The notes under the pieces are model-generated. The model was not told the origin of the DNA, did not search any database, and worked only from the letters and a program-made list of their open reading frames with translations. This document shows, piece after piece, positions 2,191 through 6,821 of a DNA stretch of 64,000 nt. Within the stretch, counting starts at the first letter, position 1; every line of letters starts with the position of its first letter. Both the position numbers and the translations under genes were made by a program. The stretch is from Candidatus Thorarchaeota archaeon (GTDB lineage: Archaea > Asgardarchaeota > Thorarchaeia > Thorarchaeales > Thorarchaeaceae): positions 2,332,310 through 2,396,309 of the forward strand of contig CP070761.1 in the NCBI GenBank assembly GCA_020348985.1, read 5' to 3'.

Positions 2191-2583
2191 GTGAATATCA
2201 AATCGCCTCGAGAGGTGAGTGTATTCTCTAGTGGGCAAAAGGCCCATACGGAATATGCTGAACCCGTTAACACTCCTCCTTTTGAGAGTCTGGCTTCATC
2301 GTTTTTGTCTCTGGCAGAACATAGGCTAAGTGACATGCAGAAGACTGTTCTTGTGATGAGTGCCAAGGTCCTTGAATATCATGACCTGACAGTGACCGCT
2401 CTTGCAGACCATATGAGCCGAAGAAGCCACGTGCCTTACAGCACACTGAAGTGGAACTTGAGGCTCCTGACGAAGATGGGTCTCTTGGTGGGTGGTGACA
2501 CCAAGAACAGAGGTAGGAAAGCAAGTCTGACAGAGGCTGCCAGATTGCTCATCCACCACTTGGAAGATCGAGCGATCTCCTAG
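2191..2583 (+). CDS. winged-helix DNA-binding protein (ArsR/MarR-like); start uncertain
   Basis: TVTALADHMS...YSTLKWNLRLLTKMGLL...ASLTEAA wHTH pattern. Confidence 0.7.
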   Translation: MNIKSPREVSVFSSGQKAHTEYAEPVNTPPFESLASSFLSLAEHRLSDMQKTVLVMSAKVLEYHDLTVTALADHMSRRSHVPYSTLKWNLRLLTKMGLLVGGDTKNRGRKASLTEAARLLIHHLEDRAIS

Positions 2584-2645
2584 AGGTTTCACTCTGGGCA
2601 ATCCTCTCTTCTTCCTGTTTTTCTCTTCGGCAAGAGCCATTGGGT

Positions 2646-2696
2646 GCATCCCGCACTCGGGAGGAGCAATCGATTTTGCCCGTCCGTCATCGAAGC
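2646..2696 (-). promoter_or_regulatory. candidate eukaryote-type SECIS element
   Basis: RNA GCUUCG-AUGA-C-GGACGGGCAA-AAUCGA-UUGCUCCUCC-C-GA-GUG-CGGGAUGC: AUGA/GA core, 10-bp helix II with one mismatch, loop AA 11 nt after AUGA. Confidence 0.7.
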
Positions 2697-3490
2697 TTCT
2701 TGCCGAAGAGATTCTTTCCTTTTGATAGGCCCTCCAAGACCTTCTCTTTACTTATGCCAGCAGACATCAGAAGCTCAACAGACACTTCTTCTCCGGATCC
2801 CAGATTTCCCAGATTCCATTGGAGCGCAGATGCTATGTCCTTTGGTCCCATCTTCAGGTTTCGTCTGAGGTCGCGACGGGCATCCTCAACTTTCAGCTTT
2901 GCAGGAGGCGAAATCTCCCAACTGTCTGGTTGTTTGATTGAACTCATTCCAACATACAGTGGATTGTCGTCCCAAATCATCATTGTACCAGAGTCTGGGT
3001 CATACTGACCGCGGTCATCCTTGTAGCTTCTTGGACCACCCAGGTCAAAGTCCATGAAGTTGTAGACCTTCATGTCTTCCACTTCCATATCTCCTATGTT
3101 TTTCGTCGTATGTCGAATGATTATTGTTGGCTTGTTATAACTCCAGAGAGCTATGCTGAATCTCAGCATCGGCTTAGAGAAGCCTACAGGAGTCAAGTCA
3201 AGATCGACCCTGAGTGTCTGACCTTTCATCTCGTTCCGTCGAATTCGAATGATTCTCTCCTCTGTCGACTGAACGTGATGAACGAGATCGTCAAGCACAA
3301 AGGAGGCCCAGAACCCGCTCCTGTAGCCCGCTGGATTGCGCAACAACAACCTGTCCAGTCCTTTGGGATCAATCAAGCTGAGTCGCTTCATATAGAAGCC
3401 CTTACGACCTCTTCCTCAAGAAACACAGTTCACTGCATATGTCATGTCAAGTCTTGGAGACCGTCTTCCAGATTCCAAGGTCTCATACAT
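2687..3490 (-). CDS. putative selenoprotein (267 aa, Sec at codon 25 in CxxU), predicted beta-sandwich body
   Basis: The ORF-track protein 2687..3391 extends in frame through one TGA (3418-3416) to ATG 3490, giving MYETLESGRRSPRLDMTYAVNCVSUGRGRKGFYMKRL...; SD-like GGTGTGA and TTTATAT lie upstream; SECIS-like hairpin at the 3' end. Confidence 0.7.
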
Positions 3491-3496
3491 GATCGA

Positions 3497-3539
3497 TCAC
3501 ACCAACTGCCTTCCTTGTCGGGATTCTCGGAGATATAAA
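3497..3539 (-). promoter_or_regulatory. TATA box (TTTATAT 3539-3533) and SD-like GGTGTGA for the putative selenoprotein gene
   Basis: TATA about 45 nt upstream of ATG 3490; SD 6 nt upstream of the ATG. Confidence 0.6.
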
Positions 3540-3667: not shown

Positions 3668-4906
3668 ATGACTACTCTTACACTAGAGCAGCTACAGAAA
3701 TGGTACAGGAAGAGGCTTTCAAACAAGTCCAAGGATTTTACAAAGCTAGCTGAGAGAAGTTACAAGATAGTCGGGCGGACATTGAAAGATGTTGAGGAAG
3801 TCTCACAAGACCTGCTTGAAGCCAGTGATGATGATGACATCGAGCATCAAGGAATCGCCTCTCGATTTGCAATGAAGATTAGTGAAATCGTTGAAGGCTT
3901 TGACGTAGATAAGAAGGTCACCTACTCAAACACAGAGGAAATGCAGGAGGAGATTCAGAGATTCATTCAGGACCTTTGGGGCGCAGGAGCAAGATGGATT
4001 AAGCGGATGGATAAGAAGCACAAGAGCACAATCAAAGTTCTTGATTCCTACATGAAAGAGCTTATGCGCGAGATGAAGAAGATAGGCAAGATCCTGTATG
4101 AGTTTGCATGGATAAAGGACCTTGAACGTATTGACGGACGAATTACTACACTTCGTGATTTGACTTATGGCAAAGAGATCTTCGAGGAGCAAATCCGGCA
4201 GATCCGTCTAAAACTGGACGCTGCGGAGGCAGAATATGAGGCGGCAGAGAAAGCCTACGGTGACTTCAAAGACACATCAAACGTCGCTGAGATACTGAAT
4301 CTTGATCAAGAGTCCGAGCGAGTTGCATCTCTGTTGCGAATGCGGCTCAACACGCTCAGAAAAGCCGTGAAGAAATTCACTCAGCATGACACCGGGGTTC
4401 GGATTGGTCCCGCAGGCCATAGGGCTTTGGCAGATTATTTCGAAGACCCCTTCGAAGCCATCGTTGAGGAGCCTGATGGCACTCCCGGCCTTCTTGAGGG
4501 ACTCGGTGGAATGCAGAAGGCAATTGAAGGCGGACAATTGAAGCTGAAAGACCGGCTGGCCAGGAGAGCGATAGAGGAGATTGAAGAAATTCGAAATGGT
4601 GCCCTTTCGGAACTGCAAAGAACAGCAAAGGATATTGTCCAAAAGAGAAGAACCTACGCCGGATCAGAAGTCTACAAGCAAAGTGAAGAGATGACTTCTC
4701 GCCTTGATGAGGCGACGAAGAACCTAGAATATCATCGCAATGACCTTCTGAGAACAGGTGATGAGATTCAGCGTCAGATTGACAAGGTGGAGGAATTCCG
4801 AGAGAGAATAGAGTCTGAGATTCTCGAAGCGTTTGGCGAGAAGGTCATGATTCAGATTGATGACTTGGGTTTGGAGCCGCTCTTAGCCAAATGTACCGTT
4901 AGCTAG
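3668..4906 (+). CDS. coiled-coil hypothetical protein
   Basis: 412-aa E/K/L-rich helical ORF. Confidence 0.75.
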   Translation: MTTLTLEQLQKWYRKRLSNKSKDFTKLAERSYKIVGRTLKDVEEVSQDLLEASDDDDIEHQGIASRFAMKISEIVEGFDVDKKVTYSNTEEMQEEIQRFIQDLWGAGARWIKRMDKKHKSTIKVLDSYMKELMREMKKIGKILYEFAWIKDLERIDGRITTLRDLTYGKEIFEEQIRQIRLKLDAAEAEYEAAEKAYGDFKDTSNVAEILNLDQESERVASLLRMRLNTLRKAVKKFTQHDTGVRIGPAGHRALADYFEDPFEAIVEEPDGTPGLLEGLGGMQKAIEGGQLKLKDRLARRAIEEIEEIRNGALSELQRTAKDIVQKRRTYAGSEVYKQSEEMTSRLDEATKNLEYHRNDLLRTGDEIQRQIDKVEEFRERIESEILEAFGEKVMIQIDDLGLEPLLAKCTVS

Positions 4907-4924: not shown

Positions 4925-5749
4925 TTGAGAGTTCTTGTTACATCTACACAAGACATGGCGAGCATGACAATCAAGCAAGTGTTGAACGAAGAGTTTGATT
5001 TTGTTGAGACCGCAGACTCATTCGAAGGCAATCCAGTTTATGCCAGAGGCGAATCGGCAATCCTGATCACTACAACTCGAGATATGATTGATTGTGAGCA
5101 CCTGGAAGATCACTTCAACGCAGAGGTCTTCATATTCTGTTCGCGACATAGAGCGGCTTCTGGAAAGCCAGCTCTCTTGGTTCATAGTACCGGAAACTTG
5201 GGCTTGGATGCGGAATTCGGAGGTCAACCTCAGCAATTGTCGGTCTCCGCAGGAAGTCTAGTCGCTCGAGCACTGAGAACACTTCAGGATGAGAAGGAGC
5301 GACAAGACCTTGTCGACTTTGATGTGACCATGGAAGTCACTCATCATGGCCCTACGTCGATGAAGACACCGCTCATGTTCATCGAGTTGGGTAGTGAAGA
5401 AGAACACTGGAAGAACGAGAAAGGTGCTAGAGCAGTAGCTACGGCTGCAATGGCCTGCATCGACGAATCCTTCTCGAAGACTGTGTCAATCGGATTCGGT
5501 GGAAATCACTACGCAAGCAAGTTTAACAGACTTGTGCTTGAGAAAGGGGTCTGCATGGGCCACATGGCTCCCAAATATGCTATAGAGGGACTTACTCCAA
5601 ATGTGGTTAGGCAGATGATAACTAGTTCAAAAGAATTGGTTGAGCGTGCTATCATCGATTGGAAAGGTACAAACGCCGAACAGAAGGCACATTTGTTTCC
5701 AATCCTTGAGGAACTCGACATCGAAACCGTCCGTGCGAAGCACCTCTAG
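4925..5749 (+). CDS. dtdA: D-aminoacyl-tRNA deacylase (archaeal DTD2/GEK1 family)
   Basis: SRH, VHSTGN, EVTHHGPT, FIELGS, GFGGNHYA and GHMAPKY motifs. Confidence 0.92.
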   Translation: MRVLVTSTQDMASMTIKQVLNEEFDFVETADSFEGNPVYARGESAILITTTRDMIDCEHLEDHFNAEVFIFCSRHRAASGKPALLVHSTGNLGLDAEFGGQPQQLSVSAGSLVARALRTLQDEKERQDLVDFDVTMEVTHHGPTSMKTPLMFIELGSEEEHWKNEKGARAVATAAMACIDESFSKTVSIGFGGNHYASKFNRLVLEKGVCMGHMAPKYAIEGLTPNVVRQMITSSKELVERAIIDWKGTNAEQKAHLFPILEELDIETVRAKHL

Positions 5750-5867: not shown

Positions 5868-6821
5868 ATGCCCTCAGATGATACGAAAAAGGCCATTGCC
5901 AATCTGGACGAAAAGATAGAGGCACTCTCAGATTCGGTGAATGATATCGCTGCAGAGATGAAAGCGCTCTCTGAGGTTCCCGAAATAACCAAAGCAGTTG
6001 ACACGCTATCGGCTGAACTGAAGAAGATCAAGAAGGATCTTGAACCAGTGTCGAAACTAGATGAGATAATCAAATCAGTCTCAGGTATCGCATCAGGCAT
6101 AGATGACCTGAAGAAGACCTCCAAGGACGAGGAGCTCGATAAGAAGGCAGACGAGCTAGCCGCTTCAGTCGCTGCTCTACACTCTGCATTCAAGACGTCA
6201 ATAGAGCAGGATGAGCCGCAACTTCTTGTGAAGAAGATAGACGAGCTTCAGCAATACATAGCAGATCTTTCAGGCATCGAAGAGAAGATATCAGAGATAG
6301 CTAGAAGCTTTGAAGAGACCCGTGAGATTGTGAGCATCATCGTTCGGCAGCTAGATGATGTCGAGCGAAAATACAACAAGGCCTTGGAGGAGGTAAGCAA
6401 GGCGCTAGAAGAAATGACAAAGGCCGCCGAGGCAGCTCCCAGAGCAGAACTACCTCCTCGGAGGGAGAAACCGAAGAAGGAGAAGCCAAAGAAGGAGGAG
6501 CCCGAAGAGCCCGAGGAGCCCGAGCCGCTCGGAGTCGAGGGGCTACCTGCCACTGTTGATGATCTCATGGATAAGCTTCTGAAGATGGTGACGGCGCAGA
6601 CAGAAGCCGTGCAGATGGCAACTGCACTCGAAGACACAAGAGACCAACTGACTACTATGATAGAAGAGCACACGCCTGTTATCTACCAATTCGGCAAGCG
6701 AGCACGTGAGTTGAAATCATACCCGCCAACTGCAACTCTGAATGAGAATGACATTGCAAGACTGAACAAGGAAATACGAGAGTGGGCTGTGAAACTCAGG
6801 GAGATAACACGACCGGATTAG
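5868..6821 (+). CDS. coiled-coil protein with Pro/Glu linker and C-terminal four-helix (Vps28-CTD-like) domain
   Basis: Heptad N-terminus, EKPKK/EEPEEPEEPEP linker, helical C-terminal domain similar to that of 48317..49207. Confidence 0.7.
   Translation: MPSDDTKKAIANLDEKIEALSDSVNDIAAEMKALSEVPEITKAVDTLSAELKKIKKDLEPVSKLDEIIKSVSGIASGIDDLKKTSKDEELDKKADELAASVAALHSAFKTSIEQDEPQLLVKKIDELQQYIADLSGIEEKISEIARSFEETREIVSIIVRQLDDVERKYNKALEEVSKALEEMTKAAEAAPRAELPPRREKPKKEKPKKEEPEEPEEPEPLGVEGLPATVDDLMDKLLKMVTAQTEAVQMATALEDTRDQLTTMIEEHTPVIYQFGKRARELKSYPPTATLNENDIARLNKEIREWAVKLREITRPD

What the first reader, a model, noticed from the sequence alone, without database searches (positions are those of the whole stretch)
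2687..3490. Hidden selenoprotein: in-frame UGA in a CxxU motif on a non-thioredoxin scaffold
Seen: the predicted ORF (ATG 3391) has no obvious SD. The same frame continues upstream through exactly one TGA (3418-3416) to ATG 3490, which has an SD-like GGTGTGA 6 nt upstream and a TTTATAT box about 45 nt upstream. Reading UGA as Sec gives ...AVNC-V-S-U-GRG..., with Cys22 and Sec25, and Cys22 is the only Cys in the protein. Known: CxxU/UxxC is the hallmark redox motif of selenoproteins, and Asgard archaea encode Sec machinery. Inference: the body (YNFMDFDLGG, YDPDSG, ALQWNLGNL) looks like a beta-supersandwich rather than a thioredoxin, Hdr, Fdh or SelD fold. This may be a selenoprotein family that standard gene callers truncate.
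Basis: partly seen in the sequence, partly recalled or inferred. Interest (0 to 1): 0.92.

Follow-up and report, generated by a model that had tools for sequence, protein, structure and literature searches.

The report
Overlooked Asgard selenoprotein on sugar-enzyme fold
This gene almost certainly reads an internal UGA "stop" as selenocysteine, giving a 267-residue protein of a widespread Asgard archaeal family that gene callers cut short and that the selenoprotein surveys I could read do not list; what it does chemically is not yet shown.

Summary
Confirmed; the genome is a Thorarchaeon.
- The TGA at 3418-3416 is kept at codon 25 in 29 of 29 Thorarchaeial genes read. Codons 2-24 are as conserved as those after it, and Met34 is Met only here.
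- A eukaryote-like SECIS sits on the gene's own stop codon; 8 of 8 stem pairs covary.
- Orthologues occur in about 184 of 400 Asgard genomes. Lokiarchaeia-type lineages also have the TGA and a SECIS. Natural Cys versions exist, including in P. syntrophicum MK-D1, and the four Loki Cys genes read lack the SECIS.
- The genome has SepSecS, EFSec and Sec-SelD. tRNA-Sec and PSTK were not found; an assembly gap lies where relatives carry them.
- A natural Cys orthologue folds as a stand-alone GH15/GH94-type N-terminal beta-supersandwich (Z 23) with the motif on a poorly ordered hairpin tip.
- The family is absent from Pfam, NCBIfam and the 2024 and 2026 selenoprotein lists I read.
Sec insertion: about 0.96. 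A redox-active selenol is the best guess for function (about 0.5); the substrate is unknown. This scan noted the same family before in at least eight other genomes (AI notes, not independent evidence).

The parts
2687..3490 (-). Selenoprotein gene, 267 aa, ATG 3490 to stop TGA 2689-2687
3416..3418 (-). In-frame UGA, codon 25, inferred selenocysteine
   Evidence: same codon in 29/29 Thorarchaeial genes; TGA in Lokiarchaeia-type families f9, f16, f30; Cys in G365 and f29
3425..3427 (-). Cys22 codon of the CxxU motif
   Evidence: 28/29 Thorarchaeial genes; absent in L027 and in most f9 genes read
3392..3490 (-). N-terminal 33 codons that gene callers omit; first beta-strands of the fold and the CxxU hairpin
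   Evidence: coding-type conservation; in the natural Cys orthologue strands 12-21 and 28-39 are ordered and residues 22-26 have pLDDT under 50
2656..2690 (-). SECIS core and upper stem: AUGA (includes the stop codon) 2690-2687, stem 2685-2678 with 2667-2660, A-rich loop, GAG 2658-2656
   Evidence: 8/8 pairs with changes on both sides, 90% of cells paired, covariation score 0.94 against 0.12-0.20 for slid controls
2642..2652 (-). Conserved extra hairpin 3' of the SECIS core (GGG, 5-nt loop, CCC)
   Evidence: covariation not counted
2623..2710 (-). Whole SECIS region; lower stem pairs the end of the CDS (2710-2694) with 2637-2623
   Evidence: fold z -3.7; mean z -2.2 in 27 orthologues against -0.5 for coding windows
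3495..3500 (-). Shine-Dalgarno-like GTGATC
   Evidence: GTGA/GTGG at the same place in most of 26 orthologues
3533..3539 (-). TATA-box-like TTTATAT
   Evidence: T/A box at about -55 to -40 in the orthologues; promoter function not tested

Best explanation
A monocistronic gene is translated from ATG 3490. UGA25 is recoded to selenocysteine by EFSec and Sec-tRNA, directed by a eukaryote-like SECIS whose AUGA core is the gene's own stop codon (strongly supported by sequence comparison, about 0.96; not shown biochemically). The product is a soluble, stand-alone GH15/GH94-type N-terminal beta-supersandwich with a C-terminal helix, and Sec25 sits on the mobile tip of the first beta-hairpin (predicted). 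Most likely the selenolate is a redox-active nucleophile that attacks an oxidised sulfur target (disulfide, persulfide or peroxide) on a ligand or partner held by the sandwich, and is resolved by Cys22 in Thorarchaeia, by a C-terminal Cys in Lokiarchaeia, or by an outside reductant (inferred). The confidence figure is for the whole statement, including the redox role.
For: Recoding: TGA at the same codon with synonymous change around it; covarying SECIS; SECIS-like elements in all Sec-type lineages read (10 f9 loci and 2 f16 loci by pattern; f30 read by eye as an elongated form, clearest in L046 and L047) and none in 4 of 4 Loki CxxC genes; Sec/Cys pairs; Sec machinery. A genome-wide scan for read-through frames with a redox-type context and a SECIS at the stop gave 4 hits: SelD, this gene and two short frames. 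Fold: the full-length Cys orthologue has pLDDT 90 against 85 for the truncated ORF, whose first 20 residues score 39-51, and matches 1ULV over residues 1-266 (Z 23.2, rmsd 2.4, 226 aligned). Redox role: Sec or Cys is fixed at this position while the first Cys is lost in some lineages; a near-terminal Cys is invariant in 19 Loki sequences, including those without the first Cys; CxxU is the usual redox motif of selenoproteins (PMC13188914).
Against: No protein-level evidence. tRNA-Sec and PSTK are not found in this 86%-complete assembly. No substrate, partner or operon clue in Thorarchaeia. The structural relatives are non-catalytic domains of glycoside enzymes, with no redox precedent known to me. 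CxxCG on a hairpin also resembles a zinc knuckle, and CxxCxxC variants exist. The distance between Sec and the conserved acidic DFD/DD cluster could not be measured.
Confidence: 0.5

Rival explanations
1. It is a selenoprotein, but CxxU/CxxC is a metal-binding knuckle (Zn or Fe-S), with the ligand set completed by a second subunit, a partner or the Loki C-terminal Cys.
For: CxxU-G and CxxC-G lie at a beta-hairpin tip; some Promethearchaeota homologues have CxxCxxC; the loop is poorly ordered in a model without metal.
Against: The first Cys is lost in most f9 genes read and in L027, which has no Cys at all; this genome's protein has only two S/Se ligands.
Confidence: 0.18
2. It is a selenoprotein acting as a redox sensor or regulator of a partner, in Lokiarchaeia the roadblock-small GTPase encoded just upstream.
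For: A roadblock/Ras-like GTPase fusion lies directly upstream on the same strand in 14 of 14 f9 and f29 loci read.
Against: That neighbour is absent beside the gene in Thorarchaeia, f16 and f30; adjacency may be plain synteny among kin.
Confidence: 0.14
3. It is a selenoprotein of selenium or sulfur traffic itself, a carrier or store serving the Sec pathway.
For: Found only in Asgard families with Sec machinery, Cys versions included; in f16 it is followed by a GcvH-like gene and a convergent SepSecS; one CxxCxxC homologue follows a weak DsrE hit.
Against: Not found in the Sec-positive families f7, f13, f26 and f27; kin are not independent, so the profile may only reflect Thor/Loki ancestry; the SepSecS neighbourhood is seen in one family.
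Confidence: 0.13
4. UGA25 is a real stop (a 24-aa leader peptide and a separately started body), or is read as Trp or another residue without Sec.
For: All full-body database proteins found for the query start after the TGA; this assembly shows no tRNA-Sec or PSTK.
Against: Residue 34 is Met in 1 of 26; the upstream part completes the fold; homologues have Cys there; the SECIS tracks the TGA; the gene's own terminal stop is TGA, so UGA is not reassigned genome-wide; an N gap lies at the expected place of the missing genes.
Confidence: 0.04

Closest known systems
Asgard selenoprotein genes with eukaryote-like SECIS (SelD, VhuU/FrhA, HdrA, VhuD/FrhD, Prx-like, AhpF-N-like, DsbA-like; PMC4989117, PMC11227280)
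   Same: In-frame UGA, RUGA..AAA..GA SECIS at the 3' end overlapping the stop codon, Cys-containing homologues, same lineages. The Thorarchaeial SelD genes have the same SECIS layout.
   Different: Not one of the seven families of PMC11227280, nor recognisable among the 11 archaeal or 119 prokaryotic families tabulated in PMC13188914. No Pfam or NCBIfam hit. Those surveys mostly started from known families.
N-terminal beta-supersandwich plus linker helix of GH15 glucodextranase/glucoamylase (1ULV, 1LF6) and GH94 phosphorylases; galactose mutarotase-like fold
   Same: Z 23.2 and 22.9, rmsd 2.4-2.5, 226-227 residues aligned over the whole model; Atlas TM about 0.8 to GH15 N domains.
   Different: Stand-alone, 12-13% identity, no catalytic (alpha/alpha)6 barrel, no GH15 found in this genome, and a Sec/Cys hairpin added.
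CxxU thioredoxin-fold selenoproteins (SELENOW/Rdx-like, AhpD-like)
   Same: CxxU motif; probably selenol/thiol chemistry.
   Different: All-beta scaffold; motif on a hairpin tip and not at a helix start; first Cys dispensable.
Unnamed supersandwich domain of secreted bacterial and archaeal proteins (T9SS, S8-peptidase-associated and other large surface proteins)
   Same: Weak profile matches over the C-terminal two thirds (E 1e-13 to 1e-3); TM about 0.8.
   Different: Those are parts of larger, apparently exported proteins without the N-terminal CxxU/CxxC; the Asgard family starts with a beta-strand and shows no signal-peptide-like start.

Membership tests
Selenoprotein (archaeal/eukaryotic-type Sec recoding) | In-frame UGA conserved across orthologues with coding-type conservation on both sides | tested here: met
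Selenoprotein (archaeal/eukaryotic-type Sec recoding) | Homologues with Cys aligned to the UGA | tested here: met
   G365 (TGT), MK-D1 QEE16515.1 and other f29 proteins
Selenoprotein (archaeal/eukaryotic-type Sec recoding) | 3' SECIS that fits the type I eSECIS-like model (GA_GA core, 7-15 bp stem, 8-20 nt loop with adenines) | tested here: met
   8-bp stem with one mismatch and a 10-nt loop; covariation; model from PMC11227280
Selenoprotein (archaeal/eukaryotic-type Sec recoding) | SepSecS, EFSec and SelD in the genome | tested here: met
   SelD itself has an in-frame TGA and a SECIS
Selenoprotein (archaeal/eukaryotic-type Sec recoding) | tRNA-Sec and PSTK in the genome | tested here: inconclusive
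   Not found in G000. A 100-N gap at C1:947613-947712 cuts the gene after SepSecS; in G001 tRNA-Sec and PSTK follow that gene. Both same-genus genomes and 12 of 15 family genomes have them
Selenoprotein (archaeal/eukaryotic-type Sec recoding) | Selenium in the protein | not testable with these tools
   needs proteomics or 75Se labelling
Known Asgard selenoprotein families (SelD, VhuU, VhuD, HdrA, Prx-like, AhpF-N, DsbA-like) | Sequence homology to one of these families | tested here: not met
   no Pfam or NCBIfam match at E up to 1
Thioredoxin-fold CxxU/UxxC proteins | Thioredoxin fold | tested here: not met
   confident model (pLDDT 90, pTM 0.90) of about 19 strands and a C-terminal helix that matches supersandwich domains at Z above 20
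GH15/GH94 glycoside enzymes | N-terminal beta-supersandwich fold | tested here: met
GH15/GH94 glycoside enzymes | Catalytic (alpha/alpha)6 barrel | tested here: not met
   the protein ends after the linker helix, at a conserved stop and SECIS; no GH15 found elsewhere in G000 (86% complete)
Zinc-knuckle metal site | Four S/N ligands and bound metal | tested here: inconclusive
   only two ligands in the chain and the first is dispensable; binding not testable here

The most novel reading that the evidence does not exclude
An archaea-specific selenoprotein family, not listed before, that goes back to the Thorarchaeia-Lokiarchaeia ancestor and has grafted a catalytic selenol onto a carbohydrate-enzyme beta-supersandwich: a selenium-dependent redox enzyme or sensor of a new structural class, acting on a sugar-like ligand or on roadblock-GTPase signalling.
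Probability: 0.45. Interest if true: 0.88.

Novelty: new variant of a known kind. Interest (0 to 1): 0.75.

Why it matters
The 2026 review counts 11 archaeal selenoprotein families, and its table marks the archaeal ones as shared with bacteria. This family is found in about 184 of 400 Asgard genomes and uses a fold that I found in none of the listed families. It shows that surveys seeded with known families miss common selenoproteins, and it corrects hundreds of truncated gene calls. [quoted passage not shown] Because the cultured P. syntrophicum carries a natural Cys version, the chemistry can be tested without Sec expression.

Tried and rejected
- Pfam and NCBIfam: no family. Rfam: chance hits only. 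The search for related loci: nothing confirmed.
- tRNA-Sec and PSTK were not found in G000 by Rfam, ARAGORN, pattern, blastn, nhmmer or tblastn; an N gap lies at the expected place.
I folded the unaltered table-11 ORF and a natural Cys orthologue instead; the full-length protein of this window was not folded.
- Complex prediction of the MK-D1 orthologue with its upstream roadblock-GTPase: no answer.
- Sequencing runs: no RNA holder listed.
- Split-GH15 idea: no GH15 found in G000; a GH15-like neighbour (judged from its N-terminal sequence only) in 1 of 21 loci.
- Trp at position 25 (P0064) is a TGA read under another code.
- The weak matches read in f24 and f25 lie in frames of 617-1475 aa and are not counted as orthologues.
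- The idea that the Cys-type Thorarchaeon G365 has lost Sec is not supported: SepSecS was not found, but it keeps a TGA-containing SelD and a SECIS-like stem.
- The SECIS model found only its own locus in G000. The bare SECIS pattern is not specific (64 hits in the genome, 31 after an energy filter), so position and covariation carry the argument.
- The tree's outgroup is on a very long branch, so the root is not established.
- Paper searches for the MK-D1 accessions and for selenoprotein plus supersandwich found nothing.

Full report
Observation. The minus-strand frame from ATG 3490 to TGA 2689-2687 has one internal TGA, at 3418-3416 (codon 25). It gives a 267-aa protein whose only Cys is Cys22. 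The standard ORF starts at ATG 3391. Database homologues are named Candidatus Thorarchaeota hypothetical proteins, and the full-body ones are 220-239 aa long, lacking the first 33 or more residues.

The TGA is selected, not a defect. All 29 Thorarchaeial genes read have one TGA at the same codon, 28 of them in CxxU. In a wider search, 60 of 61 near-complete Thorarchaeial matches have an upstream stop at that distance (open frame 241-246 aa; codon type not shown), and the exception has Cys. Across 26 orthologues, codons 2-24 show 61% amino-acid identity with third-position bias (0.35/0.19/0.62), like codons 26-48 and unlike the UTR. The start is ATG or GTG in all, and residue 34 is Met only in this genome. 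A contig from another study repeats the TGA, and a diverged strain keeps it while neighbouring third positions change.

SECIS. The stop codon is part of an AUGA motif, followed by an 8-bp stem, an A-rich loop and GAG (2690-2656), then a second small hairpin and a lower stem that pairs with the end of the CDS (fold z -3.7). In 26 orthologues all 8 stem pairs show changes on both sides, 90% of cells pair, and the covariation score is 0.94 against 0.12-0.20 for slid controls. This fits the type I eSECIS-like model of Huang et al. 2024 (PMC11227280), who note that Lokiarchaeial stop codons often overlap the AUGA. The genome's own SelD has the same layout. A genome-wide scan for read-through frames with a SECIS at the stop returned SelD, this gene and two short frames.

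Machinery. SepSecS (E 2e-115), EFSec (over the cut-off) and SelD with an in-frame TGA are present. tRNA-Sec and PSTK were not found. The assembly has 131 gaps of 100 N, and one (C1:947613-947712) cuts the gene after SepSecS, just where the same-genus genome G001 continues with tRNA-Sec and PSTK. The absence is therefore not informative.

Family. A profile finds about 184 orthologues in 400 Asgard genomes: Thorarchaeia 67 of 86, f9 98 of 135, f29 10 of 14, f30 3 of 4, f16 5 of 5, f28 1 of 1. All are in families with Sec machinery, and none was found in the families without SepSecS; kin are not independent, and some Sec-positive families lack a match. The equivalent position is TGA in f9 (mostly xxxU; CxxU in one genus), f16 and f30 (CxxU), and Cys in f29, including P. 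syntrophicum DSAG12_02345, and in one Thorarchaeon. SECIS-like elements accompany the TGA genes and are absent from the four Loki CxxC genes read. In a tree the Thorarchaeial Cys version is nested among Sec versions, and CxxU occurs in four lineages, which suggests ancestral Sec with later changes to Cys; the root is not established.

Structure. The truncated ORF folds with a poorly ordered start. The natural full-length Cys orthologue from G365 folds well (pLDDT 90): strands 12-21 and 28-39 are ordered and the CxxC lies on the low-confidence loop between them. The whole chain matches the N-terminal supersandwich and linker helix of glucodextranase and bacterial glucoamylase (Z 23.2, rmsd 2.4, 226 residues), better than the truncated form does (Z 20.2). 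The part before the UGA is thus needed to complete the fold. There is no catalytic barrel, and no GH15 was found in this genome. A conserved acidic cluster (D147, D149, D158, D159) may form a ligand or metal site; its distance from Sec could not be measured.

Mechanism. Shown by sequence comparison: read-through position, SECIS, Sec/Cys pairs, most of the machinery. Predicted: fold and loop position. Inferred: function. The Sec/Cys position is fixed while the first Cys is dispensable, and Loki proteins carry an invariant near-terminal Cys. That pattern suits a nucleophilic selenol with alternative resolving thiols, so a redox role is my best reading (0.5). Rivals are a metal knuckle (0.18), a redox regulator of the roadblock-GTPase that precedes it in 14 of 14 Loki f9/f29 loci (0.14), a selenium or sulfur carrier (0.13; next to SepSecS in f16), and no Sec at all (0.04).

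Comparison with what is known. Published Asgard selenoproteomes hold seven families. Mariotti 2016 found no further candidate with a SECIS-first search. The 2026 review lists 11 archaeal and 119 prokaryotic families, none of which I could match to this one. Pfam and NCBIfam give no hit, and paper searches found no mention; subscription literature was not searchable. It works like known Asgard selenoprotein genes at the level of recoding but belongs to none of their families. Earlier notes of this scan reached the same reading on at least eight other genomes; I consulted them after forming mine, and they are not independent evidence.

Verdict. A real and overlooked selenoprotein family on an unexpected scaffold: new variant of a known kind, interest 0.75, limited by the unknown chemistry and the lack of protein-level proof.

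Noticed in passing
window 2710-2623 (-); L035, L069, L070 3' ends; L030, L053-L055 3' ends: The Thorarchaeial SECIS looks like a three-way junction: an extra small hairpin lies between the GA core and the lower stem, both here and in SelD genes, and a similar hairpin follows the Loki elements. The text of the model in PMC11227280 does not mention it; I could not see the figures.
   Followed up: partly
L030, L053-L055, L058-L060 (Lokiarchaeia f9), 14 codons before the TGA: These orthologues appear to start at AUA after a GGAGG SD; in L054 and L058 an in-frame TAA lies just upstream, leaving no ATG, GTG or TTG start. The f16 genes may start at ATT or at a downstream ATG.
   Followed up: partly
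G000 C1:947613-947712: The single 'contig' is a scaffold with 131 gaps of exactly 100 N; one lies where tRNA-Sec and PSTK are expected.
   Followed up: yes
L042 3048-5675: In family f16 the selenoprotein gene is followed by a GcvH-like gene (by sequence look only) and a convergent SepSecS; its SECIS begins in the last five codons of the CDS.
   Followed up: partly
L045-L047: The f30 orthologues follow a gene with a gelsolin-like motif (by eye) and have an elongated SECIS-like stem across the end of the CDS; L045 has AUGU in place of AUGA.
   Followed up: partly
L056 (G264) and L029 (G007): These two copies are interrupted (a frame change near the N-terminus; a match over residues 1-79 only): assembly errors or pseudogenes.
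   Followed up: no
L062, L063, L065 (P0073, P0116, P0082): A separate clade of homologues has CxxCxxC; two lie in one assembly (GCA_963986185.1), one of them after a gene with a weak DsrE hit.
   Followed up: partly
window 3668-4906, 4925-5749, 5868-6821 (+): A divergent cluster of a 412-aa coiled-coil-like gene and a D-aminoacyl-tRNA deacylase (PF04414) is syntenic with G365; no Pfam hit for the 412-aa protein.
   Followed up: partly
window 2191-2583 (+): A small convergent gene that looks like a helix-turn-helix regulator ends just beyond the SECIS; no Pfam hit at E 0.01.
   Followed up: no
G000 C1:1018942 and C1:888108 (-): Two short frames with an in-frame TGA in a Cys context and a SECIS-like pattern came out of the genome-wide scan; probably chance, not checked in relatives.
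   Followed up: no
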